A DNA stretch of 14,475 bases. Origin: Candidatus Aenigmatarchaeota archaeon (GTDB lineage Archaea > Aenigmatarchaeota > Aenigmatarchaeia > Aenigmatarchaeales > JACQIB01). The DNA is taken from contig JBHIDR010000019.1 of NCBI GenBank assembly GCA_046760225.1, positions 1-14,475 on the forward strand. Reading direction: 5' to 3'. Below are positions 1 to 14,121 of this stretch, piece by piece (within the stretch, counting starts at the first letter, position 1; the number at the start of each line of letters is the position of its first letter). The notes beneath the pieces are model-generated. The model had not been told where the DNA came from. It ran no database searches and saw only the letters and a list, made by a program, of their open reading frames with translations. The position numbers were made by a program, and so were the translations under genes.

Positions 1-366
1 GACAGCAAGTTCCTTGCTGAAAAAAGGAAGGAAGACAATGAAATCGATCCAGGAGCCCTTGTGTTTCCCGGAGGACATGTGAAGGAAGGAGAGAGCCTCT
101 TTGGTGCATGCAGGAGGGAGTTCAGGGAAGAGTTCGGCTTGGACTGCGGCACTTTCGAGTTCATATGCACTTTGCCTTATACTGCTTCCAACAACGAGCA
201 GATGGACCTTCACTATTTCTTCTGCAAAGGATGGTCAGGAGAGCCAAAATCCCTTGAAGCAGAAAAACTGGTTTGGCTGGGTCCTGAAGAACTGGAAAAT
301 CTGTCTTTTGACGAGGACAAACAGGCAGTGGCAGAATTTATATTGGCAAAAGGGGAAATATTCTAG
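1..366 (+). CDS. Nudix hydrolase, MutT-like (5' end lies outside the window)
   Basis: Frame is open from base 1 (DSKFLAEKRKEDNEIDPGALVFPGG...). Complete Nudix box GHVKEGESLFGACRREFREEFGL (GX5EX7REUXEEXGU). The TAG stop overlaps the stop of the convergent gene (ctag, 363-366). Confidence 0.9.
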   Translation, partial: DSKFLAEKRKEDNEIDPGALVFPGGHVKEGESLFGACRREFREEFGLDCGTFEFICTLPYTASNNEQMDLHYFFCKGWSGEPKSLEAEKLVWLGPEELENLSFDEDKQAVAEFILAKGEIF

Positions 367-926
367 TCCTTGCTCAATATCAGGTATCTTTTCTTCTTCT
401 TTCCCTTTCCTTCCTCCACCACATACCCGGAAAATAATCTTGAAAGTTCCTTCCTGGCCATTTCCCATTCCTTCTCTGTATGGGGATAGAACTGCAGTCC
501 CACTTTTCCACCTTTCCTGAGCACCCTTCTCATTTCCCTGAAGGCAAGCCTGTACTGCTCAACCACTTCCTCTGGGCTCTTTCCTATTATCCATTGAAGG
601 GTTGAGATGGATACGATTCCATCAAACACACTGTCCTTGAAGGGAAGGGACTTGAAATCAGCAAGCACAACCCTGTCGAATCCCTTCCCTTTGGCTATCT
701 TGAGCATCTCAAGTGAAACATCAATACCAAATGCATTCTCTCCAATGACCTCCATTGAAAAGCCTGTGCCGCATCCTATGTCAAGTATTTTGCCACCAGC
801 CCTCATTTCCTTCAGAACCCTTTCTGTCATCATGTGCTGTATCTTCCTTGTTGACGTGCTCCTTTCATAAGCCTCGGCCTCCTCCTTTGTCCAGTAGCTT
901 TTTGCAGAAATAAGTTTTTCTTTCAT
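363..926 (-). CDS. Class I SAM-dependent methyltransferase, Bud23/WBSCR22-like (putative SSU rRNA guanine-N7 methyltransferase)
   Basis: Motif I ILDIGCGTG, then GIDVSLEML and LPFKDSVFDG. Bud23-type signatures: EEAEAY..ST..KIQ..MTER.L, SISTLQW, GGK..LQFYP and FSG.VV...KKKRYLIL. Starts 4 nt after the aIF2-alpha stop, with a GAGTGAGG SD-like motif. Confidence 0.85.
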   Translation of the reverse strand: MKEKLISAKSYWTKEEAEAYERSTSTRKIQHMMTERVLKEMRAGGKILDIGCGTGFSMEVIGENAFGIDVSLEMLKIAKGKGFDRVVLADFKSLPFKDSVFDGIVSISTLQWIIGKSPEEVVEQYRLAFREMRRVLRKGGKVGLQFYPHTEKEWEMARKELSRLFSGYVVEEGKGKKKKRYLILSKD

Positions 927-930
927 GTCC

Positions 931-1701
931 TCACTCGTATATGAACCTGCCTTCGCCGCCCCCTGCCTTCATTGCCTTTATTATGTCCTCTGCAGCAGCC
1001 CTGAGCTTCTTCTCGTCCTTCTTGGCTTCCTTTGAGAGAATTGAAATAGAATATTTGGGTGCGGAAATGTATTTTATTATGAACCCCTTTTCACCAGCAT
1101 CCTTGAGAACTTTCTTTATTACCTCTATGCCATCGGGCTTGCTGCACGTAAGCTCGAGTATTCCCTTTAGTTCCCTTTCCTTTATTTCCATTGTTTCTTC
1201 TGCCACTTCCCTTATTGTTTTTGCCCATTCCTCGGGTATGCCCCTCTTTATGAGCAGCCTGTAGCCGTCCTCTGTCATGGAAAGCTTGAATACCTTGAAC
1301 ATTTCCCCGAACCTCTCCTTCATCAGGTGTCCCACTTCTTCGTATGCGTCCCTGGTCTCCATACTTCTCTTTTTGGCAGCAATCTCGAGCATCCTTTCTG
1401 CCTTTTGCTCCCTTTTGGCCTCCTTTAGTTTCTCCTCAACATCCCTCTTGCTGACCCTTTTGAGGCTGAGGCCAACATGACCTTTTACAGGATCGACCCT
1501 CATTACAAGAACAACAATCCTCTTCCCTTCCTTGACAAAATCCCTTATGTCCTTTACCCATTTCCTTGCAATCTCGGATATATGTATCATTCCCTCTACG
1601 CCAGGATAATCTTCGAGCTTCACGAATGCGGAGAACGGGTTGACCCTACTTACAGTACCTATTACAAGCTCTCCTCTTCTAGGGAATTTCTTCTCGTCCA
1701 T
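931..1701 (-). CDS. eif2a: Translation initiation factor 2 subunit alpha (aIF2-alpha)
   Basis: N-terminal S1 domain (FPRRGELVIGTV...AFVKLEDYPGVEGMIHISEIARKWVKDIRD...GHVGLSLKRV) and C-terminal DGIEVIKKVL...YISAPKY. 256 aa, downstream of S27e as in the canonical cluster. Confidence 0.97.
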   Translation of the reverse strand: MDEKKFPRRGELVIGTVSRVNPFSAFVKLEDYPGVEGMIHISEIARKWVKDIRDFVKEGKRIVVLVMRVDPVKGHVGLSLKRVSKRDVEEKLKEAKREQKAERMLEIAAKKRSMETRDAYEEVGHLMKERFGEMFKVFKLSMTEDGYRLLIKRGIPEEWAKTIREVAEETMEIKERELKGILELTCSKPDGIEVIKKVLKDAGEKGFIIKYISAPKYSISILSKEAKKDEKKLRAAAEDIIKAMKAGGGEGRFIYE

Positions 1702-1735: not shown

Positions 1736-1927
1736 TTAGTCCATTACCTGTATGACCCTTGCCCTTATCCTGCTCTTTCCGCCTGTGTTTTCAGCAAGCG
1801 TGGCGCTGCAGACAAGGCACTTTACCTCAGAAGAAGCCTTGTTGAATATTATCTGCTCGTTCTTGCATTTGCTGCAGACAACCTTGAGGAACTTGCTCTT
1901 TGGTCTTGGTATTATGGCCCTGGGCAT
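1736..1927 (-). CDS. rps27e: 30S ribosomal protein S27e
   Basis: PKSKFLKVVCSKCKNEQIIF...VKCLVCSATLAENTGGK zinc ribbon. The likely start is the ATG at 1927, overlapping the L44e stop (TAATG), with GGTGA upstream. The ORF-track start at 2002 is too far upstream. Confidence 0.97.
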   Translation of the reverse strand: MPRAIIPRPKSKFLKVVCSKCKNEQIIFNKASSEVKCLVCSATLAENTGGKSRIRARVIQVMD

Positions 1928-2214
1928 TATGCTTTCACCAGCTCGAATTTCTTTACCCTGAAGCCCTTGCCAACACTGTGTGCCTTCTTGCATTCCTTGC
2001 ACCTGTACCTGAGGTCCAGCTTCCTTGTGGGCTTCTGCCTGTCCTTTGGGTTCTCCTTGGGAAAGGAGCCAAAGCCCTTCATCTTCCTTTTGAACCTCCT
2101 CTGCCCCTGTGCCATCGGCCTTCTCTTCCTTCCCACACCTTCCCTTTTCACAGTGTGCTCTGTATGCTTCCTGCAGTATGGGCAGTACTTCTTCTGCTTC
2201 TTGGGCATCTTCAT
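1927..2214 (-). CDS. rpl44e: 50S ribosomal protein L44e (eL42)
   Basis: MKMPK...YCPYCRKHTEH...GFG...KPTRKLDLRYRCKECKKAH...GFRVKKFEL. Confidence 0.97.
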   Translation of the reverse strand: MKMPKKQKKYCPYCRKHTEHTVKREGVGRKRRPMAQGQRRFKRKMKGFGSFPKENPKDRQKPTRKLDLRYRCKECKKAHSVGKGFRVKKFELVKA

Positions 2215-2274: not shown

Positions 2275-2727
2275 CTAGTTTTGTTTAATTTTTTCCATTG
2301 CTAATTTTCCAATCTTCTTAACATCGCTTGGTATGTCATGTGAATTCATTAACTCTTCAAGTGTAACCCACCTATGCCCTTTGCTCTCATGTGATAATGT
2401 TACTTTGTCGTTTTTTGCTCTGCATAAATAGAATAAGCATGCATGGTTGTGGTCTCCAACATTGTGAACGTTTGCATAAAAGGGCAGAGCCAGTTGAATA
2501 ACTATACTATCATTTTTATCTTTTGGTATTTCTTCCTTCTGTATAAATTCTGCGTCAATTCCTGTTTCCTCTTTTATTTCGCGTAGAATCGCTTCGTCAG
2601 GTGTTTCATTGGCTTCTATATGTCCGCCTGGGGGCAACCATTTATCTAACTTTGCATGATGAACTAAAAGAATCCTATCATTGTTTATAACATATGCGCC
2701 GATTACTAAATCCGTCTTGCCCTTCAT
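2275..2727 (-). CDS. Nudix hydrolase
   Basis: ILLVHHAKLDKWLPPGGHIEANETPDEAILREIKEETGI Nudix box. Start placed at ATG 2727 (MKGKTD), which has a TTATAAAA box about 24 nt upstream. AT-rich relative to the flanks. Confidence 0.92.
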   Translation of the reverse strand: MKGKTDLVIGAYVINNDRILLVHHAKLDKWLPPGGHIEANETPDEAILREIKEETGIDAEFIQKEEIPKDKNDSIVIQLALPFYANVHNVGDHNHACLFYLCRAKNDKVTLSHESKGHRWVTLEELMNSHDIPSDVKKIGKLAMEKIKQN

Positions 2728-2779
2728 AACGAATAATATGTAAGTCATGCTTTTATAATATATCATTTTCAATATTTGG

Positions 2780-3120: not shown

Positions 3121-3801
3121 CTAGAGGTACATCCTTACGTCTTCTTCAGCGGCCTTCCTTGCTATGAGCACACTTGCGATTTCCTTTGGAAGCTGGACCA
3201 TGTCACCTGCCTTGAAAGGGCCATAGGGCTGGAAGTCTCTGCCAACGAATTTCGGCATCTCTGTAAGTATCTTGACATTCATCTTGTTCGGGTCAGCTGG
3301 TTTTTTTATCGGTTTTGCTGGTACTTCAACTGGCTTTGGTGCTTCCTGCACAGGCTGAGGAGCAGGTTTTTCAACTGGTACAGGCTCCACAATAGCTTTT
3401 GCCTCTTCCAGACTTCTTCTTGCTTCCTCTATTTTTTCCTCAGCAAAGAAGTCTGCTCCGCTCAGCTTCTCCTGCAGATCCAGTTTGAATGACTTGAAGA
3501 GCGTAACAGCCCGGTCAAAGAACTTCTGCTCATCTTCTGTCATGTTCTCAGGAGGCACGCCTCCCCTTATGGTACGCATGGCTGACATTATGATTTTTCT
3601 CTGCCTCCTGTTCATTATGTCGTCAACCTTATCTTTCACTGTTTTCAGTTCCATAATTGAGAGCGGATCTCTTAGGCTACTCTTCTCCCCAAACCATTTT
3701 CCAACAGAATCAAAAAAATCTGGGGGCAGCTTGCTGAGCTGTTCCCTCTTCTCAGCCATATGAACTGTTCTTATGGTCTCAAAGGTTATGAGTTCTGCCA
3801 T
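3121..3801 (-). CDS. gins15: GINS complex subunit, Gins15/Gins51 type (A domain, linker, B domain)
   Basis: N-terminal EK..QLSKLPPDFF...RRQRKII..A....NMTEDEQKFF and C-terminal B domain VKILTEMPKFVGRDFQPYGPFKAGDMVQLPKEIASVLI. Lies directly downstream of the primase. ATG start at 3801. Confidence 0.92.
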   Translation of the reverse strand: MAELITFETIRTVHMAEKREQLSKLPPDFFDSVGKWFGEKSSLRDPLSIMELKTVKDKVDDIMNRRQRKIIMSAMRTIRGGVPPENMTEDEQKFFDRAVTLFKSFKLDLQEKLSGADFFAEEKIEEARRSLEEAKAIVEPVPVEKPAPQPVQEAPKPVEVPAKPIKKPADPNKMNVKILTEMPKFVGRDFQPYGPFKAGDMVQLPKEIASVLIARKAAEEDVRMYL

Positions 3802-3834
3802 AAACAACACTCAATATATCTGCATTGAAACAAT

Positions 3835-5082
3835 TTATCCTTTTCTCTTCTCCCTCATGGCCTTCCTATAGGACCTGAAAGCATAATTAACAGGGTTTTT
3901 CACTTTACCGCAGTTCTCTGTGCATATGCCTATTGACTTGTAAAACAGGTCAGAACCACAGTTTGGCGGCATAATCGCCCTCCTTTGCCTGGAATGCCAT
4001 TTCAGCTGCGTTGTAACAAACCTGTCCGAAAGCCCCACGCTCTTGTTCCATTCCATTACCTTCTTTTCTATGTCATCCCATTGCCAGTTCACTGAGCGCA
4101 GGAAGGATATGAGCGTGAATATCGACCTTTTCCTGCCGTCCTTTGTCCCTTCCAGTATCCTCTTTATGCACACTGGGAAATGCTGCTCTGGTATTGCCCT
4201 CTTTATGCTCACCCTCCTCTCCTTTTTCCTTACCTCTTCCTTCCTGTGCTTTGCTCTCCAGCTGACAGCATCTACCAAAAGATTCTGCGCTTCAAGGTCC
4301 TTGCTAACAAGGAACTTCATCCTTGCCTTCACCTTTTCTGGGTTTGCTGACTCCTTTTTAAATGATTTCAGCTTGAAGAGCGGTATGGGTACAGAAGCCA
4401 GCCATGTCTTGTTGTGCAGGGAATATGGTGCCCTGAACATGTGCCTGCTTCCCCAGTCCTTTTCTATTTCAACAAATTCATAAGGGCTAAGTTCCTTTAT
4501 CTTTCCCACTGTCTTGGTAAGTGCTGCATGGCCCCCTTCCATTCTTATTAGCGAGTCCATTATCTTGTCCCTTGCCTTTTCCCTGATGAATCCGGCAATT
4601 GCCTGGGGTATTTCAGGGTATTGTTGCGCAACAGGCCTGGAATCAACCCTGTTGGGGAATGCATTGCTAGCTATTCCTATATGGAAGCCCCTTGAGCCTG
4701 AGAACTTGACAGTAGGGCTTATTCCCATGTCCTTGAGCAGGTCCACAACAGCAATTGCAGCTGCCCTGGCATGCTCCAGCTTAGCCTTTGCATCAATGTC
4801 TATTATCATGTCCCATTCCTTTCTCAGCTCGTCCAGCTCCTTCCTGCTCATTGCTGACTTCAGGGAGAGCGGATTTGTCCACTTCTCAACAGAGAGGTGG
4901 AACGCCACAACACCGTTCTTTACCCTTTCTATAACATCCCTGGGATACTGGAGCACATCAGGCCTTGATGTGAATGTTCCGTCCCTCTTTGTGCCCCCAA
5001 CTTCCCTCTCCTTTGCAGCCTCAACTATTGTGGCCTGAACATCCTTCCTAGAATAGTATTTTATGAGGTCCAGCTGGTGCAT
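3835..5082 (-). CDS. priSL: Fused archaeo-eukaryotic DNA primase (PriS catalytic domain plus PriL C-terminal Fe-S domain), DPANN type
   Basis: AEP motifs WDMIIDID, KFSGSRGFH and RHMFRAPYSLH, followed by PriL-CTD features with four Cys (FPVC...PPNC...GIC..NC..KNP). Confidence 0.93.
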   Translation of the reverse strand: MHQLDLIKYYSRKDVQATIVEAAKEREVGGTKRDGTFTSRPDVLQYPRDVIERVKNGVVAFHLSVEKWTNPLSLKSAMSRKELDELRKEWDMIIDIDAKAKLEHARAAAIAVVDLLKDMGISPTVKFSGSRGFHIGIASNAFPNRVDSRPVAQQYPEIPQAIAGFIREKARDKIMDSLIRMEGGHAALTKTVGKIKELSPYEFVEIEKDWGSRHMFRAPYSLHNKTWLASVPIPLFKLKSFKKESANPEKVKARMKFLVSKDLEAQNLLVDAVSWRAKHRKEEVRKKERRVSIKRAIPEQHFPVCIKRILEGTKDGRKRSIFTLISFLRSVNWQWDDIEKKVMEWNKSVGLSDRFVTTQLKWHSRQRRAIMPPNCGSDLFYKSIGICTENCGKVKNPVNYAFRSYRKAMREKRKG

Positions 5083-6095: not shown

Positions 6096-7535
6096 ATGCG
6101 TTTGACATTTTTCACTGTACCAATTGCTCTAATTATTCTTTCTTCTATGGTATATGCAGCAACAATAAGCCTGAATTTTCCAACAAGCAATACCCAGCTC
6201 AACGGAACAGTGCTCCTGAATGCTACAGTTGATGTGGCAAGGAGCAATGCCAGTTTTTATTATAATGAAACATACATAGGAACAAACTATTCCACAGGAA
6301 CAGAGTTCACCCTGGTCTGGAATTCGAGCACAATACCTGATGGTGTCTATTCCTTCAAGGTGAATGTCAGCAATGGTGACCAGGTGACCAGCGACAATGT
6401 AACTGTTGACAACCATCCGCCCCAAATAGAGGTAGAGCTCCCAGCGAACACAACCTATGGCTACAGCACTTCCCTTCCCCTTAACTTCTCATTGTCAGAA
6501 ACAGGTGACTGGTGCGGCTATTCCCTGGACAATGGGGCAATTGTAACAATACCTTCCTGTTCGAACACAACCTTCAATACAACCGAGGGGGTGCACAACA
6601 TAACAGTCTCGGCCAATGATACGCTAGGGAACATGAACTCATCAGCCACAAGATTTTTCCTTGTGGACCTGACAAGCCCATCAATCAACTCGGTTTCCAT
6701 TGATGACAACTATGTCGGGGACGGCGATAATTTTGTGGTAGAAGTAAATTCAACTGACAACCTTGACACCAACCTCACAGTCACAGAGGCAATATTCAAC
6801 TCAACCCATACCATACTCACAAGGGTGCTGGACAATTACAATGGCATCTACAACACAACCAATACAGGAATGAACTCCTCCTATGCTGAAGGCACCTATT
6901 ACATAAACATAACATCAGTTGATGATGCAGGAAACCTGGCCTTCAATGATTCCCTTCAGCTCACCCTTGACAACACCCCGCCCAGCATAACTGGCTCTGG
7001 CCCATCCGGCACCCTGACATCCTCTTCTGTTACGCTCACAGCCACAACAGACGAGAATGCTGAATGCAGGTACAGCCAGTCAGATGATGCCTTTGCCAAC
7101 ATGTCCGCATTCTCAGCAACAGGAGGAACATCCCACAGCCATGGCCTCAGCCTCTCCAATGGAAACTATTTGTTTTATTTCAGGTGCAGGGACCCTGCAG
7201 AGAACGAGGGACCAGGCAATACCAGCTTTACTGTAAGTGTCTCAAATCCTCCTGGTGGTGGCAGCTCAAGTTACTATCCCCCTGTCAAGATAGTATGGGT
7301 GGAAAATGAGCCAGAAGAAGAGGAAACACCTAAAGAAGAGCCCCAGGAAGAGCCAAAGGAGGAAGAAGTAGCGCAGGAAACATACGTTGAGCCAGCAAAG
7401 AAGAAAACGCTTTCAGGACCAACAGGTTTCTTTATCAGAGACCCCAATGCACTGGGCATAGCAATAGTGGTAATCGGTGTTGCTGGATGGCTCTACTTTA
7501 GGAAGTTCCTGCACAAAAGAAAGGCAAAGGTTTAG
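6096..7535 (+). CDS. Secreted, C-terminally membrane-anchored surface glycoprotein with tandem Ig-like domains
   Basis: Signal peptide (MRLTFFTVPIALIILSSMVYA). Repeated Ig-like ends (VDNHPP, VDLTSP, LDNTPP; DTLGN, DDAGN). Many N-x-S/T sequons. Gly/Ser and Glu/Pro linker, then PTG-F, a TM helix and a basic tail. Confidence 0.85.
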   Translation: MRLTFFTVPIALIILSSMVYAATISLNFPTSNTQLNGTVLLNATVDVARSNASFYYNETYIGTNYSTGTEFTLVWNSSTIPDGVYSFKVNVSNGDQVTSDNVTVDNHPPQIEVELPANTTYGYSTSLPLNFSLSETGDWCGYSLDNGAIVTIPSCSNTTFNTTEGVHNITVSANDTLGNMNSSATRFFLVDLTSPSINSVSIDDNYVGDGDNFVVEVNSTDNLDTNLTVTEAIFNSTHTILTRVLDNYNGIYNTTNTGMNSSYAEGTYYINITSVDDAGNLAFNDSLQLTLDNTPPSITGSGPSGTLTSSSVTLTATTDENAECRYSQSDDAFANMSAFSATGGTSHSHGLSLSNGNYLFYFRCRDPAENEGPGNTSFTVSVSNPPGGGSSSYYPPVKIVWVENEPEEEETPKEEPQEEPKEEEVAQETYVEPAKKKTLSGPTGFFIRDPNALGIAIVVIGVAGWLYFRKFLHKRKAKV

Positions 7536-7969
7536 TGTTTGTAGAACCTCTTTGCAAGGAAGTTCTTTATCAGTTTCTCACTCGGGAAGAACATGGGTGA
7601 GGGAAGTGAATTCAAATCAAACCATCCCCATTCTGTTATCTCTTCCGGTTCCATTACCTTTGCATCGCCCTCAAAGTCCGTGCATATCAGCCCTATTGTG
7701 ACAAAATGCTTCTCAGGAACCATGTCATTTGTGACGCTTATTACCTCCAGGCTATTTGCCTTTATTCCTGTTTCTTCCTCGATTTCCCTTGCTGCTGCCT
7801 TTTCAAAGCTCTCATGGAAATGAAGCTTTCCTCCTGGCAGTGTCCATGTGCCTTCTCCCTTGAGCTCGCTCGTTCCCTTGCTCCTGTCGTCTGTCCTCCT
7901 TCCCAGGAGTATCTTCCCGTCCTTGAGAAGTATCACACCTATTCCAGCACCTACTTTCTTACCAGACAA
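7532..7969 (-). CDS. Nudix hydrolase, NUDT15/MTH2-like nucleoside triphosphate diphosphatase
   Basis: VGAGIGVILLKDGKILLGRR...GTWTLPGGKLHFHESFEKAAAREIEEETGI...VTND...HFVTI...MEPE...W.WF...LP. TTG start with AGGTG upstream. Confidence 0.9.
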   Translation of the reverse strand: MSGKKVGAGIGVILLKDGKILLGRRTDDRSKGTSELKGEGTWTLPGGKLHFHESFEKAAAREIEEETGIKANSLEVISVTNDMVPEKHFVTIGLICTDFEGDAKVMEPEEITEWGWFDLNSLPSPMFFPSEKLIKNFLAKRFYKH

Positions 7970-7977
7970 AGAAACAC

Positions 7978-8328
7978 CTATGATGCTTTTTTCTTCTTGA
8001 GGGCTTTCTTCTCTGCCAATTTCTTCTCAAGGGCTTTCAGTCCTGCTGCCCTTGTCAGGTTTATTATGGCCTTTTGCTCCACTGACATCATCCTGTTTGT
8101 ATAGGAGTTCATGTAACTATTTGCCTGCTTTCGATTCCCCCTTTTTAGGGCACCCTTTGCTTGCTCCCTGTACTGCATCATTCTCTCCAGATCTTTCCTA
8201 TAAGCAGGGTCACTTCCAATGGCTTTGACAATAGACCTTATATAGGATTCACTTTTTAATTTCTTTCCCAGGTCTTTCTTGATGTCAGACAAAGGTTTTT
8301 TGTATGATTCTCCCTGTTTCCCTGCCAT
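7978..8328 (-). CDS. Small, highly basic alpha-helical hypothetical protein (paralogue 2)
   Basis: ATG at 8328 (MAGKQG) preceded by AGGTGA. Clear paralogue of 8338-8661. Confidence 0.85.
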   Translation of the reverse strand: MAGKQGESYKKPLSDIKKDLGKKLKSESYIRSIVKAIGSDPAYRKDLERMMQYREQAKGALKRGNRKQANSYMNSYTNRMMSVEQKAIINLTRAAGLKALEKKLAEKKALKKKKAS

Positions 8329-8337
8329 ATTTTTCAC

Positions 8338-8661
8338 CTATGATGCTTTTCTTTTCTTCCTTGCAGCTTCCTTTAATGCTTTCTTTGTCAGCTTCAACAC
8401 GGCCTTTTGCTCCACCTTTGCTAGCCTGTTTCCATAAAAACCAATATATCTGTCTGCTTCAGCTTTCTTACCTCCCCTCATGGCAGCCTTTGCCTGGGTT
8501 CTGTAATACATCATCCTCTGGAGGTCTTTCCTGTAATTAGGATCACTTGCTACGAGCTGGACAACGCGCTTGGCATAAGCTTTGCTAACTCCTCTCTTTT
8601 CCAAATTCCTTTTGATATCAGAAAGAGGTTTTTTATATAGTTCTCCTTTTTTTCCTGCCAT
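8338..8661 (-). CDS. Small, highly basic alpha-helical hypothetical protein (paralogue 1)
   Basis: Starts 2 nt after the PCNA stop, with a GAGGAG SD. About 30% Lys+Arg by manual count. Paralogue of 7978-8328. Confidence 0.85.
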   Translation of the reverse strand: MAGKKGELYKKPLSDIKRNLEKRGVSKAYAKRVVQLVASDPNYRKDLQRMMYYRTQAKAAMRGGKKAEADRYIGFYGNRLAKVEQKAVLKLTKKALKEAARKKRKAS

Positions 8662-8663
8662 GC

Positions 8664-9410
8664 TTACTCCTCTGAGACTCTCGGGGCGAGAACGAATCCG
8701 AGCTTTGCCCTCTCTCCCTCAAAGTCAATTCTGAGGGGGTAGTCGTTGCCGAGCTGTATCTTTGCATTTGTTGCAAGCCTTGCAGCCTTCATCATTTTCT
8801 TGAGATAGTCCAGCGGGTATCTTGATTTTACAGTCTGTGGTGCTGTTATGTTAAGGAGCGCAGGGCTCCCCTTTTCCAGCTTCAGCTCTGCCCTGCTTGA
8901 GCCTCCTTCTGCAAACATCTTCAGGCTGCTCTCATCCACCTCTATTATTACGGAGTCAGCAACAATGTCAGCATCGTCAATCCCCTTTGATATTATGATT
9001 CCTTCCACATCTGCTGATGCAGGAAATTCGAACTGTGCAACAGAAGGCACGTCCTCTGCTGTGATGTCAATCAGGGGCATTGCAAACCTCCTCCTTGAGT
9101 TCCCTTCGAGCAGGATTTCCATCCTGTCCTCAGAGAGCCTTAATGTCAGCTTGTCATCGCTCCCTGCCCTTTTTAGCACTGTAAGGAAGTTCAGCATGTT
9201 GAGTCCTGCTGTTGTTTCCTTGTCACATGCAAAACTGTCAAATGCCTCAGCATCCATCTTGAAGTCAACAACAGCCACCATTGCCCTGTCAGCTGCCATG
9301 AGTTCTATTCCATTGGGTTTTATCCTGAAATTGCCCTCGTCTATTATCTGGGCTATTGTGTCTATGCTGTCCTTAAGAATCTTTACATCAGATAGTGTTG
9401 CAACGAACAT
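8664..9410 (-). CDS. pcn: DNA polymerase sliding clamp PCNA
   Basis: 248 aa. IIDEGNF...GIELMAADRAMVAVVD...SRYPLDYLKKM...LGNDYPLRIDF...FVLAPRV. Confidence 0.97.
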   Translation of the reverse strand: MFVATLSDVKILKDSIDTIAQIIDEGNFRIKPNGIELMAADRAMVAVVDFKMDAEAFDSFACDKETTAGLNMLNFLTVLKRAGSDDKLTLRLSEDRMEILLEGNSRRRFAMPLIDITAEDVPSVAQFEFPASADVEGIIISKGIDDADIVADSVIIEVDESSLKMFAEGGSSRAELKLEKGSPALLNITAPQTVKSRYPLDYLKKMMKAARLATNAKIQLGNDYPLRIDFEGERAKLGFVLAPRVSEE

Positions 9411-9807: not shown

Positions 9808-12420
9808 ATGATTAGTGATGGCATGAGGAACATATGGCTTTTGGCAGCGATAGTGGTAGTTCTGGTGGGTTTTGTGTCCTTTATGCAGCCCACGGCATTT
9901 GCAACATATCCAGCATGCGCACTGGGCAGCACAAATGAAACAGTAAATATAACAGGAAATTGTGTTTTTGCAGCAGGAGAACAATGCATTAATGGTACAA
10001 TGACTATAACAGGCAACATAACAGATGACGGCACTCCTATTGCAAGCCTCTACATGGAGAACTGCACAGTGCTTTTCAACAACAGCTATGACGGCGAATT
10101 CGGCTTTTGGGTGACCAATGGGCAAGTGGCTATAAATAACTCTGTTATCAAAACAGGTCCTTTCAATTCTTCAACTAAATCCTTCTTTTATGTCCTTAAT
10201 ATAATGTCATTCGAGTTATACAATAGTGAAGTTAGTAATATAGGGGTTAACACTGCTGATCCCACCTACAATGGAATTTTTGCTGCCAGTGGCGGCAGCA
10301 TTATAGAGAACAACACAATAACAGGTAGTGACAAGCATGGCCTTATACTGAAATATAATAGCCAAACTGTGAAGAACAATACAATTTATAACAATGCTGA
10401 AAAGGGCATTTATCTCCAATCCTCCAACAGCAGCACCCTGTCCCTTAATAATGTCAGTTTTAACAAAGAAGGAATAAGAGTACAAACCGGCTATTTCAAC
10501 CTCATTGCAAACAACACGGTTGCCAATAACAGCAGAACAGCATTGGGCGCAGGAATTGTGGTTTGGGGCGCCCCGAACACAACTGTGGAGAATAATACAA
10601 TATTGTTCAATAATGATTTCGGGATATTCCTTAATGCAGTGAATTTTGTCAACATAACCAACAACAACATAACTAACAACAACGTGAGCGGAATTTTCAT
10701 GCAGGCACAAAATTACATTGAAGTTATGTTTAACAGCATCACAAATCATTCTTACTATGGTGCAGACGTATCCACAGTGACCAATTCAAACATATGGAAT
10801 AATACTTTCTGCTACAACAAGCTCAATGCAACTAACCCAAATTCTGGAACACCAGGTGCAAATAGTTTTGTATTCAACAATACTTTTTGCATTGACCTCT
10901 TAAAACCCAAGAACGGAGAAATAATCAACACCCCCAATTTCACATTTTTTGTTTCCAATCCCCTCGGAACTACCAATATACCCTCTCTTTGCAATGTTTC
11001 AGTTGACAGTCAACTTATAGGTCAGGCCCCCACATTCGGTCCTGAAGAAATACTTTGGGTGAACAACTCTAGTGTATCAGAAGGCAACCACAGTATATAC
11101 ATTTACTGTGATCCTTATCAAAATGAGGCAGAGACAGAAGGAGAATTTATTCTTGATGCATCATCTTCCCAGTATTCCGACCAGTTCAAGTCAGGAGACT
11201 GTGGCGATGCCGATACCAACCTTACTCTGGGTGCTTACTGGATAGATGCTGTAACTAATATCTCATATGTATGGCTTGCAACAAACGAGACAGGCAGCAT
11301 GACCAATTATACTGATTATTATGGCTCGCCGATGTTCTTCAATGATACGAACGAGACATGGGCGAATTTCAGCTGGTGGAACAGCTCTGTGCAGGACTCC
11401 AATATCGAGTGGAGGCAGTGCGCGAATGATTCTGCATCCAATGAGAACTGCACAGAGATAGCTAACTTCACAGCATCACCATGTGCACCGCCACCAGAAC
11501 CCCCGCCACCAGCAGGGGTTGGCGGAGCAGCACCTCCCCCATCACCATACTCATGCAGCGCAACAGCCATGTCCCTCTCGCTCAGTAATGTAGCATTGGG
11601 CACATATGAGGAAGAAACATATACAGATTATTGCAATGGCATCAGGCTTGATGAGTTCTATGCTGCAGCAAGCGGCGATGTCAAGTTTACAATCAAGGTA
11701 ATTGACGAGTTTGCAGATAAACCAATAGGAAGAATATATCATTATTATAATGCTTCAATAGGCGATGAGCTGGAAGGCAATGTTTCTGATATAAAGCTGG
11801 GCTTTGGGGTGAACAACTCATGGCTCCTGGAAAACAACATAGGGTATGGAGACATAGAGATGCAACACTATGAAGACGGCAACTGGACAACACTCGCAAT
11901 GAGGAATGTTGACAGGGACGAGAACTCTTCATATTATCAGACCACAATTCCTTCCCTTTCCCTTCTTGCAGTGGTAGGCGAGCCTGAATGCGTATGTCCT
12001 GAACCTTCAGAATGGTCAGACTGCGTTGAAGGCAATCAGACAAGGACAGCCTATGATTGCGGTACTGACACAGATTATGAATGCATAGAAATCACTCAGG
12101 CAAGGGAATGTGCTCTTGAGTGCGAGCCATGCCCTGATACAATATATGGTAGTTGCATAGAAGGCAAGAGAGAAGCCACATACTTCTACTGCAATGAGAC
12201 AACACAGTTCCTTTGCGCTAACCACACTGTTACTGAGGCCTGTGCCATTATTGGCCTGCCGAAGATAACCCTGCCTGAGTTCAAGGTGCCTGAGACACCA
12301 TTAGAATGGGTGCAGACAGTTTCAATAGCAGCAGTAGTTGTAGTAATAGTGGCAGTAGGTGCATATTATGTTTTTCGAGTCAGGAAAAAGCCCAAAAAAC
12401 CAAAGAAAAAGAAGAAATAA
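9808..12420 (+). CDS. Large cell-surface protein: right-handed beta-helix (NosD/PbH1-like), Ig-like region, Pro linker, PGF-pre-PGF-like domain, Cys-rich repeats and TM anchor
   Basis: Signal peptide (start may be the ATG at 9823). Repeated I.NNTI..N...GI.L units. PPPEPPPP linker. I.LGFGVNNSWL.ENNI...WTTL...YQTTIPSLSLLAVVG. Two CP....C.EG...YxC repeats. TM helix and RKKPKKPKKKKK tail. Confidence 0.88.
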   Translation: MISDGMRNIWLLAAIVVVLVGFVSFMQPTAFATYPACALGSTNETVNITGNCVFAAGEQCINGTMTITGNITDDGTPIASLYMENCTVLFNNSYDGEFGFWVTNGQVAINNSVIKTGPFNSSTKSFFYVLNIMSFELYNSEVSNIGVNTADPTYNGIFAASGGSIIENNTITGSDKHGLILKYNSQTVKNNTIYNNAEKGIYLQSSNSSTLSLNNVSFNKEGIRVQTGYFNLIANNTVANNSRTALGAGIVVWGAPNTTVENNTILFNNDFGIFLNAVNFVNITNNNITNNNVSGIFMQAQNYIEVMFNSITNHSYYGADVSTVTNSNIWNNTFCYNKLNATNPNSGTPGANSFVFNNTFCIDLLKPKNGEIINTPNFTFFVSNPLGTTNIPSLCNVSVDSQLIGQAPTFGPEEILWVNNSSVSEGNHSIYIYCDPYQNEAETEGEFILDASSSQYSDQFKSGDCGDADTNLTLGAYWIDAVTNISYVWLATNETGSMTNYTDYYGSPMFFNDTNETWANFSWWNSSVQDSNIEWRQCANDSASNENCTEIANFTASPCAPPPEPPPPAGVGGAAPPPSPYSCSATAMSLSLSNVALGTYEEETYTDYCNGIRLDEFYAAASGDVKFTIKVIDEFADKPIGRIYHYYNASIGDELEGNVSDIKLGFGVNNSWLLENNIGYGDIEMQHYEDGNWTTLAMRNVDRDENSSYYQTTIPSLSLLAVVGEPECVCPEPSEWSDCVEGNQTRTAYDCGTDTDYECIEITQARECALECEPCPDTIYGSCIEGKREATYFYCNETTQFLCANHTVTEACAIIGLPKITLPEFKVPETPLEWVQTVSIAAVVVVIVAVGAYYVFRVRKKPKKPKKKKK

Positions 12421-13272: not shown

Positions 13273-13539
13273 TTACTCCTCTTTCTTGATTCCAATCAAA
13301 AGCAATTTTATTATGAAGAATCCGATGATTGTGCCGATGAATGTAAACAAAACATAAGGATGGTATGTCTTGAAAATGAATTTCAGGGTGAACGGCCACT
13401 CATAAAAACTGTGATGGATGTCGAACAGGAAGACGAATAAGAATGAGACAAATGCAGAGATGAACAGAAAAATGGCATCAGCAACCAGTTCCTCCCTTGT
13501 GATGTGCGATTTCCGTATTTTCTTCAAGTGCCTTCTCAT
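13273..13539 (-). CDS. Small membrane protein with 2 TM helices, function unknown
   Basis: Two hydrophobic helices flanking DIHHSFYEWP. TTTATATA box about 21 nt upstream. Confidence 0.75.
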   Translation of the reverse strand: MRRHLKKIRKSHITREELVADAIFLFISAFVSFLFVFLFDIHHSFYEWPFTLKFIFKTYHPYVLFTFIGTIIGFFIIKLLLIGIKKEE

Positions 13540-13559
13540 ATTTTAAATATTTTAAGTCC

Positions 13560-13569
13560 TTATATAAAT
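13560..13569. promoter_or_regulatory. Putative bidirectional TATA element
   Basis: TTATATAAAT in the middle of a 48-bp spacer between the divergent ATGs at 13539 and 13588. Confidence 0.5.
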
Positions 13570-13587
13570 AAAACCGAGGTCTGGAGC

Positions 13588-14121
13588 ATGAGAAAGAAGC
13601 CAGAGGTTCTGAGGTCAAAAAACCAATATAATGGATGGTTGAAGCTAAGAGTAGACATACTAAAGCTTCCAGGTACAGAAAAACCCTATCCTTATGATGT
13701 TGTTGAAATAGGTGACGGTGTGGCTGTTCTGCCTTTCCTTGACAAGGAAACGCTCTTGCTGGCAGAGCAGTACAGGCATCCTGTTGGAGAAACCCTATTG
13801 GAGCTTATTCAGGGCGGAATAAGGAAGAACGAAACAATCGTGGAGGCTGCCAAAAGGGAGCTGCTTGAAGAGACAGGCTACACAGGAAATGTAAAGAACA
13901 CATACACGATGTATCCATTGCCTGGCTCTCTGGACATGCGTCTCTACATAGTGGAGGCCACAGAGCTTGAAAAGATACAGGAACCCGGGCTTGATGCAAC
14001 AGAGAGCCTGACATTGGTCGAAAGATCTTACAAACAAGTGCTGGAAGAAGTCCTTTCTGGAAAGCACAAGGACAGCGCACTGGCGTGGGCAGTTTTATAT
14101 CATGAAGTTAGAAATCCTTGA
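13588..14121 (+). CDS. Nudix hydrolase, ADP-ribose pyrophosphatase (NudF)-like
   Basis: Y.GWLKLRVD...GVAVLPF...EQYRHPVGETLLELIQGGIRKNETIVEAAKRELLEETGY...YPLPG...E.L. Start is the ATG at 13588; the ORF-track start at 13504 overlaps the divergent gene. Confidence 0.9.
   Translation: MRKKPEVLRSKNQYNGWLKLRVDILKLPGTEKPYPYDVVEIGDGVAVLPFLDKETLLLAEQYRHPVGETLLELIQGGIRKNETIVEAAKRELLEETGYTGNVKNTYTMYPLPGSLDMRLYIVEATELEKIQEPGLDATESLTLVERSYKQVLEEVLSGKHKDSALAWAVLYHEVRNP

What the first reader, a model, noticed from the sequence alone, without database searches (positions are those of the whole stretch)
363..926. Apparent archaeal orthologue of the eukaryotic 18S rRNA m7G methyltransferase Bud23/WBSCR22
Seen in sequence: YWTKEEAEAYERSTSTRKIQHMMTERVL, ILDIGCGTGFS, GIDVSLEML, LPFKDSVFDGIVSISTLQW, LRKGGKVGLQFYP and FSGYVVEEGKGKKKKRYLILS. 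Recalled yeast Bud23 has, in the same order, FYNDSEAHKYTGSTRVQHIQAKMTLRAL, ILDIGCGSGLS, GLDISPSML, IPFRAGSFDAAISISAIQW, LKKGGKFVAQFYP and FSGGLVVD...KKNKKYYLVLS. The match extends to the family-specific N-terminal helix, SISxxQW, QFYP and the last beta-hairpin, which generic class I methyltransferases do not share. Only the eukaryotic C-terminal extension is missing. Established: Bud23, with its activator Trm112, forms m7G1575 in yeast 18S (G1639 in human) and is generally treated as eukaryote-specific. Inference: this DPANN-like archaeon may carry a eukaryote-type SSU maturation/modification enzyme, either ancestral or transferred.
Basis: partly seen in the sequence, partly recalled or inferred. 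Interest (0 to 1): 0.9.

Follow-up and report, generated by a model that had tools for sequence, protein, structure and literature searches.

The report
Tail-less archaeal Bud23 rRNA methyltransferase
A tiny DPANN archaeon encodes a short but otherwise complete relative of Bud23, the eukaryotic enzyme that methylates one guanine at the ribosome's P site and that specialist reviews say archaea lack, which predicts an rRNA mark nobody has mapped in these organisms.

Summary
Window 363-926 (-) is an intact 187-aa ORF holding all six quoted peptides.

It belongs to the Bud23/WBSCR22 methyltransferase-domain family:
- Yeast and human Bud23 are its best solved relatives, end to end. The single protein gives 1.6e-20 against 4e-10 for the next methyltransferase. 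An archaeal-only profile gives 176 against 76 bits.
- The AlphaFold model's top 8 PDB matches are all Bud23 chains.
- A eukaryotic Bud23 finds only this ORF in the genome.
- A careful tree separates the family from generic methyltransferases at 99/99.

It lacks the eukaryotic C-terminal tail. The genome encodes a 54-aa Trm112, and a model predicts binding (0.90 against 0.00 for controls); this may reflect solved Bud23-Trm112 structures.

The gene follows eL44, eS27 and aIF2alpha, with 4 nt after aIF2alpha. aIF2alpha lies directly upstream at 5 of 10 relatives' loci.

Distribution is patchy: named relatives are only DPANN and Asgard, and none turned up in two 201-genome samples of other archaeal phyla.

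m7G activity is untested, and the 16S target region is not in this assembly. Whether eukaryotes nest among the archaeal forms is unresolved (AU p 0.50). This scan noted archaeal Bud23 relatives before, on other genomes.

The parts
363..926 (-). Bud23/WBSCR22-family class I SAM methyltransferase, 187 aa (P0001), without the eukaryotic C-terminal WBS_methylT tail. SAM motif LDIGCGTG at residues 48-55, acidic D69, family motifs KIQ (Q30), SISTLQW (106-112) and QFYP (145-148), and a basic last hairpin KKKKRYLILS.
931..1701 (-). aIF2 alpha subunit (S1 + EIF_2_alpha domains). Its stop codon lies 4 nt before the methyltransferase ATG, so the two are probably co-transcribed and translationally coupled.
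   Evidence: the same order is seen at 5 of 10 relatives' loci
1736..2002 (-). Ribosomal protein eS27 (Ribosomal_S27e), same strand, upstream in the same gene string. The listed GTG start is probably too far upstream, since the Pfam match covers residues 34-87.
1927..2214 (-). Ribosomal protein eL44 (Ribosomal_L44), first gene of the co-directional string eL44-eS27-aIF2alpha-methyltransferase.

Best explanation
The gene encodes a tail-less archaeal member of the Bud23/WBSCR22 methyltransferase family. Most likely it pairs with the genome's 54-residue zinc-knuckle Trm112 through a beta-zipper between the methyltransferase's strand beta3 and Trm112's last strand. The pair would bind S-adenosylmethionine and, on a late pre-30S particle, transfer a methyl group to N7 of the universally conserved P-site guanine of 16S rRNA. 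By my recall, the counterpart of yeast 18S G1575 and human G1639 is E. coli G1338. The gene is expressed from one string with eL44, eS27 and aIF2alpha, which ties it to small-subunit and initiation functions. Shown here: family membership, predicted fold, conserved SAM-binding and family-specific residues, presence of a Trm112 gene, and operon context. Inferred: physical binding to Trm112, the RNA substrate, the position, and the N7 chemistry.
For: Sequence:
- phmmer against the PDB puts yeast Bud23 (1.6e-20, query 3-185 against chain 5-200) and human WBSCR22 (8.5e-17) first. The next methyltransferase is at 4.2e-10.
- A profile of 33 archaeal short forms with no eukaryotic row hits yeast Bud23 at 5e-51 (176 bits, full length) and human at 1.6e-46. 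The next chain is at 2.2e-20 (76 bits, core only).
- Reciprocal search: a eukaryotic Bud23 carrying PF12589 (P0158) finds one place in the own genome, this ORF (9.5e-23, 36% identity).

Conserved residues:
- In an alignment of 30 archaeal and 6 eukaryotic members the invariant columns are Q30, G51, C52, G53, G67, D69, F101, S106, S108, Q111, W112 and Q145-F146-Y147-P148.
- By my own reading of motif position, not from a printed alignment to the human protein, G53 (central Gly of the GxGxG motif) and D69 (acidic residue after strand beta2) are the kind of SAM-site residues mutated in human WBSCR22 (G63E, D82K). That paper says equivalent yeast mutations give catalytically dead enzyme (PMC4472018, passages).

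Fold: AlphaFold2 mean pLDDT 94.7. The 8 best Foldseek PDB matches are all Bud23/WBSCR22 chains (TM 0.77-0.89, E 2e-18 to 2e-15); the next is at 2.7e-11 with TM 0.69.

Tree: careful IQ-TREE, 75 rows, 199 columns. The 65 Bud23-type rows separate from 10 generic methyltransferases at 99/99. Eukaryotes are one clade at 100/99. The window protein sits with an Aenigmatarchaeota protein at 100/98.

Partner:
- PF03966 match in the own genome at 25.1 bits (cut-off 22), a 54-aa CPxC...CPxC protein.
- Complex model ipSAE 0.90 in 3 of 3 runs, best of 3 controls 0.00, partner pLDDT 92, runs agreeing in 100% of contacts. That mark was reached by 116 of 157 solved complexes and 2 of 215 mismatched pairs.
- The interface is methyltransferase residues 84-101 with Trm112 residues 39-48 and 9-15. 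This is the beta3/beta4 zipper described for Trm112 complexes (PMC5372719, passages).
- All 12 carrier genomes of 201 sampled in the phylum have a PF03966 match (one weak, G163), against 141 of 201 overall.

Context: the ATG lies 4 nt after the aIF2alpha stop. aIF2alpha lies directly upstream on the same strand at 5 of 10 relatives' loci, from 4 family codes (f1, f2, f7, f18).
Against: - No activity, RNA or modification data exist for any archaeal member that I could find.
- The reviews note that the nucleotide matching G1575 has not been found modified in the archaeal 16S rRNAs analysed so far. Those come from lineages in which I also found no such gene.
- The target region of the own 16S rRNA cannot be inspected. 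The assembled gene breaks off about 25 nt before the expected guanine, and the universal 1392-1406 motif is not in the 83%-complete assembly.
- The gene is patchy: 12 of 201 genomes in its own phylum and 10 of 301 in a second DPANN phylum. So it is dispensable for most relatives.
- The complex score may come from the model's memory of the solved Bud23-Trm112 structures. It shows likeness, not binding.
- The Trm112 match in the own genome is only just over Pfam's cut-off, and its loop between the two Cys pairs is shorter than in relatives.
- Outside the window's phylum the aIF2alpha linkage is not kept (0 of 10 loci).
- In yeast and human the protein, not the methylation, is what ribosome biogenesis needs (PMC4472018). 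A structural role is therefore possible.
Confidence: 0.6

Rival explanations
1. It is a true Bud23-family enzyme but works on another substrate in archaea: a different guanine of 16S or 23S rRNA, a tRNA, or a free purine or nucleoside.
For: Substrate is not tested. The review notes that the Bud23 active site resembles that of a plant xanthosine methyltransferase (PMC5372719, passages). At 5 of the 15 loci checked that lack aIF2alpha, an aminoacyl-tRNA synthetase gene lies beside it (L143, L151, L152, L007 scanned; L144 inferred from the ORF layout it shares with L143). The eukaryotic tail is absent. H. volcanii Trm112 has many methyltransferase partners with unknown substrates (PMC6144793).
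Against: The residues invariant across archaeal and eukaryotic members include the whole set of family-specific motifs around the active site, which argues for the same substrate nucleotide. The target guanine is, by my recall, universally conserved in small-subunit rRNA. The operon with eS27 and aIF2alpha points to the small subunit.
Confidence: 0.25
2. It acts mainly as a non-catalytic 30S assembly or quality-control factor, as Bud23 does for 40S biogenesis, with methylation secondary or lost.
For: In yeast and human cells the presence of Bud23/WBSCR22, not its catalytic activity, is needed for pre-rRNA processing (PMC4472018, passages).
Against: The SAM-binding motif and all family-invariant residues are intact, so purifying selection keeps catalysis. 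The eukaryotic tail is missing. The eukaryotic partners of the assembly role (Dhr1, the U3 snoRNP context named in PMC5372719) are by my recall eukaryote-specific. A gene present in only 12 of 201 relatives is unlikely to be a core assembly factor.
Confidence: 0.07
3. It is an ordinary Methyltransf_11-type small-molecule methyltransferase (BioC/UbiE-like) that resembles Bud23 only through the shared Rossmann fold.
For: Pfam names only generic methyltransferase domains. NCBI labels relatives 'class I SAM-dependent methyltransferase' and JGI labels two 'UbiE'.
Against: NCBIfam BioC scores 54.6 bits against a cut-off of 184.95, and UbiE 44.2 against 158.35. There is a 100-bit gap between Bud23 and the next PDB chain. 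The alignment to Bud23 runs end to end, including the N-terminal helices and the last hairpin. The branch separating the family from generic methyltransferases has 99/99 support. Family motifs are absent from 74 of 74 generic hits.
Confidence: 0.03
4. It is eukaryotic contamination of the assembly or a recent transfer from a eukaryote.
For: Eukaryotic Bud23 is the only characterised relative. One 930-base contig in a bacterial MAG carries a full-length match (L032), which shows that stray contigs exist.
Against: The gene sits 4 nt after archaeal aIF2alpha on a 14.5-kb contig with archaeal replication and translation genes. The same order recurs in relatives. There is no WBS_methylT tail. The 20 eukaryotic rows form one clade at 100/99 that excludes every archaeal row.
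Confidence: 0.02

Closest known systems
Bud23 (S. cerevisiae) / BUD23-WBSCR22 (human), the Trm112/TRMT112-dependent 18S rRNA m7G1575/m7G1639 methyltransferase (PDB 4QTT, 4QTU, 6G4W, 7WTN)
   Same: The whole methyltransferase domain is shared, from the N-terminal helices to the last beta-hairpin, at 29-32% identity over the matched chains in the fold search. Shared features are the SAM motif, the acidic residue after beta2, KIQ, SISxxQW, QFYP and the basic hairpin, with predicted-fold TM 0.77-0.89. A Trm112 gene is present and the predicted interface uses the same strands.
   Different: No C-terminal WBS_methylT extension: 187 aa against 275-281 aa. The partner Trm112 is a 54-aa zinc knuckle without the eukaryotic helical domain. 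The organism has no nucleolus. The gene lies in an operon with eL44, eS27 and aIF2alpha. Activity and target are untested.
Short Bud23-like proteins of Asgard (Hel-, Prometh-, Hodarchaeota) and other DPANN archaea (Micr-, Woese-, Iainarchaeota/Diapherotrites), unnamed in NCBI and auto-named '18S rRNA (guanine1575-N7)-methyltransferase' by JGI
   Same: Same length class (184-231 aa), same motifs, and same clade against generic methyltransferases. Identity to the window protein is 27-71% among named or close hits.
   Different: The window protein belongs to a separate 9-row subclade with an Aenigmatarchaeota protein (98/92). The aIF2alpha linkage was seen only in its own phylum. Earlier notes of this scan report eS25 as the neighbour in Loki-type Asgard genomes; I did not test that.
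Hvo_0019 and other Trm112-bound class I methyltransferases of Haloferax volcanii (PDB 6F5Z; PMC6144793)
   Same: An archaeal class I methyltransferase that needs or binds the small Trm112 through the beta-zipper.
   Different: Only a distant relative: 8.6e-11 to the archaeal Bud23-type profile against 5e-51 for Bud23, with TM 0.59. It lacks the Bud23 motifs.

Membership tests
Bud23/WBSCR22 methyltransferase-domain family | Class I SAM-dependent methyltransferase fold with a GxGxG SAM motif and an acidic residue after strand beta2 | tested here: met
   Methyltransf_11 at 3.5e-19. LDIGCGTG and D69 are invariant or nearly invariant columns. The AlphaFold model has pLDDT 94.7 with a Rossmann-type strand order.
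Bud23/WBSCR22 methyltransferase-domain family | Family-specific sequence blocks outside the generic core: N-terminal helix with invariant Gln (KIQ), SISxxQW, QFYP, and a basic C-terminal hairpin | tested here: met
   All are present in P0001. They are invariant across 30 archaeal and 6 eukaryotic rows and absent from 74 of 74 generic methyltransferase hits. The choice of these blocks as 'defining' is mine, taken from the alignment, not from a curated model.
Bud23/WBSCR22 methyltransferase-domain family | Bud23 is the best characterised relative, and the relation is reciprocal | tested here: met
   PDB searches. Eukaryotic P0158 finds only this ORF in the own genome.
Bud23/WBSCR22 methyltransferase-domain family | Groups with Bud23 to the exclusion of other methyltransferases in a phylogeny | tested here: met
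   99/99 branch in the careful tree of 75 rows. The outgroup was only 10 generic methyltransferases drawn from my own search hits. Named Trm9, Mtq2, Trm11 and METTL5 sequences were not included.
Bud23/WBSCR22 methyltransferase-domain family | Predicted structure superposes on solved Bud23 | tested here: met
   The top 8 Foldseek PDB matches are Bud23/WBSCR22 chains, TM 0.77-0.89, rmsd 1.9-2.4 A.
Bud23/WBSCR22 methyltransferase-domain family | Works as a heterodimer with Trm112 | tested here: inconclusive
   A Trm112 gene is present. The complex model scores 0.90 against 0.00 for controls, but a like complex is solved, so the pass may be memory. Binding was not measured.
Bud23/WBSCR22 methyltransferase-domain family | Forms m7G at the small-subunit rRNA position matching yeast G1575 | not testable with these tools
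   No modification data are available. The own 16S gene breaks off before the site in the assembly.
Full-length eukaryotic Bud23 architecture (methyltransferase domain + WBS_methylT tail, PF12589) | C-terminal basic WBS_methylT extension | tested here: not met
   No PF12589 match was found, and the ORF ends 2 residues after the last hairpin. Of 20 long forms scanned, 14 carry PF12589 at E<=1e-9. I therefore file it under the methyltransferase-domain family, not under the eukaryotic architecture.
BioC (TIGR02072) / UbiE-MenG (TIGR01934) | Score over the curated NCBIfam cut-off | tested here: not met
   BioC 54.6 against 184.95 bits; MenG_MenH_UbiE 44.2 against 158.35 bits.

The most novel reading that the evidence does not exclude
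The Bud23-Trm112 holoenzyme and its P-site m7G mark are not eukaryotic inventions. They already existed in archaea (DPANN and Asgard), and eukaryotes inherited the enzyme and later added the basic tail for nucleolar assembly duties. In this lineage the enzyme is co-expressed with aIF2alpha. That would hint that the mark tunes how the P site holds initiator tRNA, so a 'eukaryotic' rRNA modification could be studied in a minimal archaeal system.
Probability: 0.4. Interest if true: 0.8.

Novelty: new member of a known kind. Interest (0 to 1): 0.6.

Why it matters
Bud23 is treated in the specialist literature as the one Trm112 partner without an archaeal counterpart. The matching 16S guanine is described as unmodified in the archaea studied (PMC5372719, PMC6144793).

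A clear, intact relative in DPANN and Asgard genomes, with its partner gene, changes that picture. It predicts a specific and easily mapped rRNA mark, m7G at the P-site ridge, in lineages whose rRNA modifications have, as far as my searches show, not been mapped.

It also gives a minimal form of the enzyme: 187 aa with no tail, plus a 54-aa Trm112. This could help separate the catalytic role of Bud23 from its eukaryote-specific assembly role. It adds one more ribosome-maturation component to the list shared by eukaryotes and some archaea.

The limits are real. The function is inferred. The gene is patchy and dispensable for most relatives. Automatic annotation already labels some relatives. 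The direction of inheritance is unresolved.

Tried and rejected
- **Genome-collection scan for named carriers.** I therefore took taxon names from the protein search.
- **Asgard, Micrarchaeota and Iainarchaeota genomes.** I had no genome handle in these groups, so I made no k-of-n counts for them. Their presence rests on NCBI names of 21 proteins (6 Asgard, 15 DPANN, among the 120 listed).
- **Five genomes reached through loci** (a Woesearchaeota, a Nanoarchaeia, a Bathyarchaeum, an unnamed archaeon, a Salinirubellus). None has a full-length match; the best was 66.6 bits.
- **Target guanine in the own 16S.** The motif around the site was not found. The 1392-1406 motif was not found in the locus or in the genome. 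The rRNA model matches end at position 1284 of 1478.
- **Eukaryotes nested among archaeal forms.** The free tree puts them next to a Hod/Micr/Iain clade at only 83/81. The AU test does not reject all 45 archaeal rows as one clade (p 0.50, with the held tree 0.89 log-likelihood units better). I therefore make no claim.
- **Gene neighbourhood outside the phylum.** No aIF2alpha was found at 10 of 10 loci of the second DPANN phylum, and the neighbours are varied.
- **Literature.** 'Bud23' with 'Asgard', 'DPANN' or 'Lokiarchaeota' each gave 0 papers. 'WBSCR22' with 'Asgard' gave 3 papers, each citing it only in the reference list. Searches gave nothing on archaeal Bud23.
- **An earlier scan note** (e1-5453667) says that 2021 and 2026 tables list Asgard Bud23. 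I could not confirm it. The 2021 Nature paper is not held. The three readable supplementary files of PMC12962969 have no 'Bud23', 'WBSCR22', 'Trm112' or 'TRMT112', and one PDF could not be read. Such supplements may still bear on novelty.
- **The Bud23-Trm112 structure paper** (PMC4280632) is not held. Its active-site mutants are therefore not compared residue by residue.
Full report
**Observation.** The window holds an intact ORF on the minus strand at 363-926: ATG start, 187 codons, TAG stop.
- The ATG lies 4 nt after the stop codon of the preceding gene.

**What the protein is, by sequence.**
- Pfam sees only generic methyltransferase domains (Methyltransf_11, 3.5e-19) and no WBS_methylT tail.
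- NCBIfam gives nothing over a cut-off: BioC 54.6 against 184.95 bits, UbiE/MenG 44.2 against 158.35.
- Against all PDB chains the five best sequences are Bud23/WBSCR22. Yeast scores 1.6e-20 over query 3-185 and chain 5-200. A fungal chain scores 4.7e-18 and human 8.5e-17.
- The best other methyltransferase is at 4.2e-10 and covers only the core.
- A profile built only from 33 archaeal short forms widens the gap: yeast Bud23 5e-51 (176 bits, positions 2-194 of 197) and human 1.6e-46.
- With that profile the next chain is at 2.2e-20 (76 bits, positions 44-150). The validated H. volcanii Trm112 partner Hvo_0019 is at 8.6e-11.
- In the other direction, a eukaryotic Bud23 that carries PF12589 (P0158) finds exactly one place in the window's genome, this ORF (9.5e-23, 36% identity).

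**The family.**
- An exhaustive phmmer search of 1.84 billion representatives gave 273 proteins at E<=1e-10. They fall into two length classes.
- Short proteins are about 185-215 aa. Long ones are about 250-300 aa and end in a basic tail.
- I scanned 20 long forms against Pfam. Fourteen carry PF12589 (WBS_methylT) at E<=1e-9, so I take the long forms for eukaryotic Bud23.
- The motifs S[IVL]S[AST]xQW and QFYP are in most members of both classes. They are in none of the 74 generic methyltransferases P0017-P0090.
- In an alignment of 30 short and 6 long forms the invariant columns are Q30, G51, C52, G53, G67, D69, F101, S106, S108, Q111, W112, Q145, F146, Y147 and P148.
- By motif position (my reading), G53 and D69 are the SAM-site glycine and acidic residue of the kind mutated in human WBSCR22 (G63E, D82K). 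The paper says the equivalent yeast mutations give catalytically dead enzyme (PMC4472018, passages read).

**Who has it.**
- A profile search of the 5.8-billion-protein collection gave 446 proteins at E<=1e-20 among the 8000 candidates scored. Of these, 120 were listed.
- Twenty-two of the 120 carry an NCBI taxon name, and all are archaeal.
- Six are Asgard: Helarchaeota 3, Promethearchaeota 1, Hodarchaeota 2.
- Fifteen are DPANN: Micrarchaeota 9, Norongarragalinales 1, Woesearchaeota 1, Diapherotrites 1, an ainarchaeum 1, Aenigmatarchaeota 1, 'DPANN group' 1.
- One is named only 'archaeon'.
- NCBI calls them 'class I SAM-dependent methyltransferase'. JGI's automatic annotation of the 120 '18S rRNA (guanine1575-N7)-methyltransferase' and others UbiE or the like.
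- The closest named relative of the window protein is an Aenigmatarchaeota protein at 62% identity.
- In 201 genomes sampled from the window's own phylum, 11 have a full-length match of 175 bits or more. One further genome (G063) has two adjacent half matches.
- The next best single match there is 86 bits and stops at profile position 150.
- A few intermediate matches at 71-83 bits that cover most of the profile (G039:C34, G124:C4, G194:C3) were not examined.
- In 301 genomes of the phylum of a Woesearchaeota genome, 10 have a full-length match.
- In 201 genomes each of the phyla of a Bathyarchaeum genome and of a Salinirubellus genome, none matched at E<=1e-30. Only 15 first-look candidates per genome were scored there.
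- The gene is thus real but patchy, and it was not found in the lineages where archaeal rRNA modification has been studied. That fits the reviews' negative searches.

**Structure.**
- AlphaFold2 on the 33-row alignment gave mean pLDDT 94.7 and pTM 0.90.
- The model has three N-terminal helices, a seven-stranded Rossmann-type core and a terminal hairpin.
- The 8 best Foldseek matches in the PDB are all yeast Bud23 or human WBSCR22 chains (E 2.1e-18 to 2.4e-15, TM 0.77-0.89, rmsd 1.9-2.4 A, 29-32% identity).
- The ninth is a generic Pyrococcus methyltransferase (2.7e-11, TM 0.69, rmsd 4.1 A).

**Phylogeny.** I built a careful IQ-TREE (LG+C20+F+G4 by PMSF) with 75 rows and 199 columns.
- The rows were 23 named archaeal forms, 22 unnamed short forms, 20 eukaryotic forms and 10 generic methyltransferases from my first search.
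- I chose them by hand from about 335 proteins then held. Fragments, forms over 350 aa and most near-duplicates were left out.
- The 65 Bud23-type rows are separated from the 10 generic rows at 99/99.
- The 20 eukaryotic rows are one clade at 100/99, in 100% of 200 bootstrap trees.
- The window protein joins the Aenigmatarchaeota protein at 100/98, inside a 9-row clade at 98/92.
- The Asgard rows fall in two places: Hel/Prometh in one, Hod in another.
- The free tree puts eukaryotes beside a Hod + Micr + Iain clade, but only at 83/81.
- An AU test does not reject a tree with all 45 archaeal rows together (p 0.50).
- So the protein is not a eukaryotic stray, and no archaeal row nests inside eukaryotes. 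Whether eukaryotes arose from within the archaeal diversity is not resolved by 199 columns.

**Partner.**
- The own genome (851 kb, 83 contigs, 83% complete) has one PF03966 (Trm112p) match, at 25.1 bits against a cut-off of 22.
- It is a 54-aa ORF with CPKC and CPAC pairs on contig C20 (L001:1480-1641).
- It aligns with 21 relatives of 51-68 aa, though its loop between the Cys pairs is two residues shorter than in most.
- This is the short zinc-knuckle-only type the review describes for archaea (PMC5372719).
- PF03966 was found in 141 of 201 genomes of the phylum. It was found in all 12 carriers of the methyltransferase, one of them weakly (G163, E 0.004).
- Kin are not independent and Trm112 has other partners, so this is only compatible with the reading, not telling.
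- A complex model with both alignments gave ipSAE 0.90 in 3 of 3 runs, against 0.00 for the best of 3 controls. Partner pLDDT was 92 and the runs agreed in 100% of contacts.
- That mark was reached by 116 of 157 solved complexes and 2 of 215 mismatched pairs. The counts hold only roughly here, because my own alignments were used.
- The contacts join methyltransferase residues 84-101 (strand beta3 and the next loop) to Trm112 residues 39-48 and 9-15.
- This is the beta-zipper geometry the review describes.
- Bud23-Trm112 is solved, so the pass may be memory. It shows likeness, not binding.

**Context.**
- On the minus strand the order is eL44 (1927-2214), eS27 (1736-2002), aIF2alpha (931-1701), methyltransferase (363-926). 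A convergent NUDIX gene follows.
- At 10 loci of relatives with 1.5 kb of flank, aIF2alpha lies directly upstream on the same strand in 5: L003, L004, L005, L006 and L009, from family codes f7, f18, f7, f1 and f2.
- eS27 and eL44 are also visible in L004 and L006.
- Three of the other five loci are cut by contig ends.
- In the second DPANN phylum none of 10 loci has aIF2alpha nearby.
- Neighbours there vary, with aminoacyl-tRNA synthetases at several loci.
- The linkage to small-subunit and initiation genes is therefore a feature of this lineage, not of the family.

**How it most likely works.**
- Shown: a Bud23-type catalytic domain with intact SAM site and family-specific residues, a Trm112 gene, and co-orientation with translation genes.
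- Inferred: the pair forms a heterodimer, binds SAM, and methylates N7 of the P-site guanine of 16S rRNA on a late pre-30S particle, as Bud23-Trm112 does on 20S pre-rRNA (PMC5372719).
- I could not inspect the site in this genome. The 16S gene on contig C1 matches the archaeal model only at positions 4-828 and 890-1284 of 1478, with large insertions.
- The gene leaves recognisable rRNA sequence after '...CAGTTCGGATTGA', about 25 nt before the expected site by my count.
- The universal 1392-1406 motif is not in the assembly.

**Comparison with what is known, and novelty.**
- Two papers from the laboratory that solved Bud23-Trm112 state that no protein with significant homology to Bud23 is found in archaeal genomes (PMC5372719 of 2017 and PMC6144793 of 2018; passages read).
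- They also state that the matching 16S nucleotide is not known to be modified.
- My full-text searches found no paper that describes an archaeal Bud23.
- Databases already hold an automatic '18S rRNA (guanine1575-N7)-methyltransferase' label for some relatives.
- This scan has noted archaeal Bud23 relatives at least 11 times in at least 9 other genomes, from Asgard and DPANN.
- One of those notes says that published tables list Asgard Bud23. A later check marked it 'part of it fell', and I could not verify it in what I could open.
- I therefore rate this as a new member of a known kind. It is a well-supported archaeal, tail-less Bud23-family enzyme in an Aenigmatarchaeota-like DPANN genome, with a lineage-specific operon context and with function still to be tested.

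Noticed in passing
own genome G000, contig C1, about 42935-46861 (locus L155 3436-7359, minus strand): The 16S rRNA gene is broken up by large insertions. Model positions 4-828 span 1695 bases, a 1.7-kb gap follows, and positions 890-1284 span 514 bases. Recognisable rRNA stops after CAGTTCGGATTGA. The 3' end and the universal 1392-1406 motif were not found in the assembly. This suggests rRNA introns or an assembly break.
   Followed up: partly
window 1-366 (+), 2275-2772 (-), 7532-7969 (-), 13504-14121 (+): Four separate NUDIX hydrolase genes lie in one 14.5-kb window of a very small genome.
   Followed up: no
window 3835-5082 (-): A 415-aa protein has weak matches to both the primase small-subunit domain (PF01896, LigD_Prim-Pol) and the primase large-subunit domain (PF04104). 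This suggests a fused PriS-PriL primase. It lies next to GINS51 (3121-3810).
   Followed up: no
window 7978-8337 (-) and 8338-8661 (-): Two tandem paralogous small basic proteins (119 and 107 aa) both start M..GK.GE.YKKPLSDIK and have no Pfam match. They lie directly downstream of PCNA (8664-9410).
   Followed up: no
own genome G000:C61:105-245 (+): Nop10, which I recall as the usual gene after aIF2alpha in archaeal genomes, lies at the start of another short contig. In this lineage the slot after aIF2alpha is taken by the Bud23-type methyltransferase.
   Followed up: partly
G063:C4:48970-49519 (not fetched): In one relative the Bud23-type gene appears as two adjacent half matches, profile 2-89 and 87-195, in overlapping coordinates. 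This may be a frameshift or a decaying copy.
   Followed up: no
P0095 (412 aa) and P0112 (382 aa): Two representatives carry a Bud23-type domain fused to a second class I methyltransferase domain.
   Followed up: no
L032 (930-base contig of a bacterial MAG), 70-654: A full-length Bud23-like match (31% identity, query 3-184) sits on a 930-base contig binned with an Ilumatobacteraceae MAG. It is probably a mis-binned stray contig.
   Followed up: no
window 9808-12420 (+) and 6096-7535 (+): Two large secreted or anchored proteins rich in N-x-S/T: an 870-aa right-handed beta-helix/NosD protein and a 479-aa Ig-like (Big_13) protein. Each ends in a hydrophobic segment followed by a basic tail.
   Followed up: no
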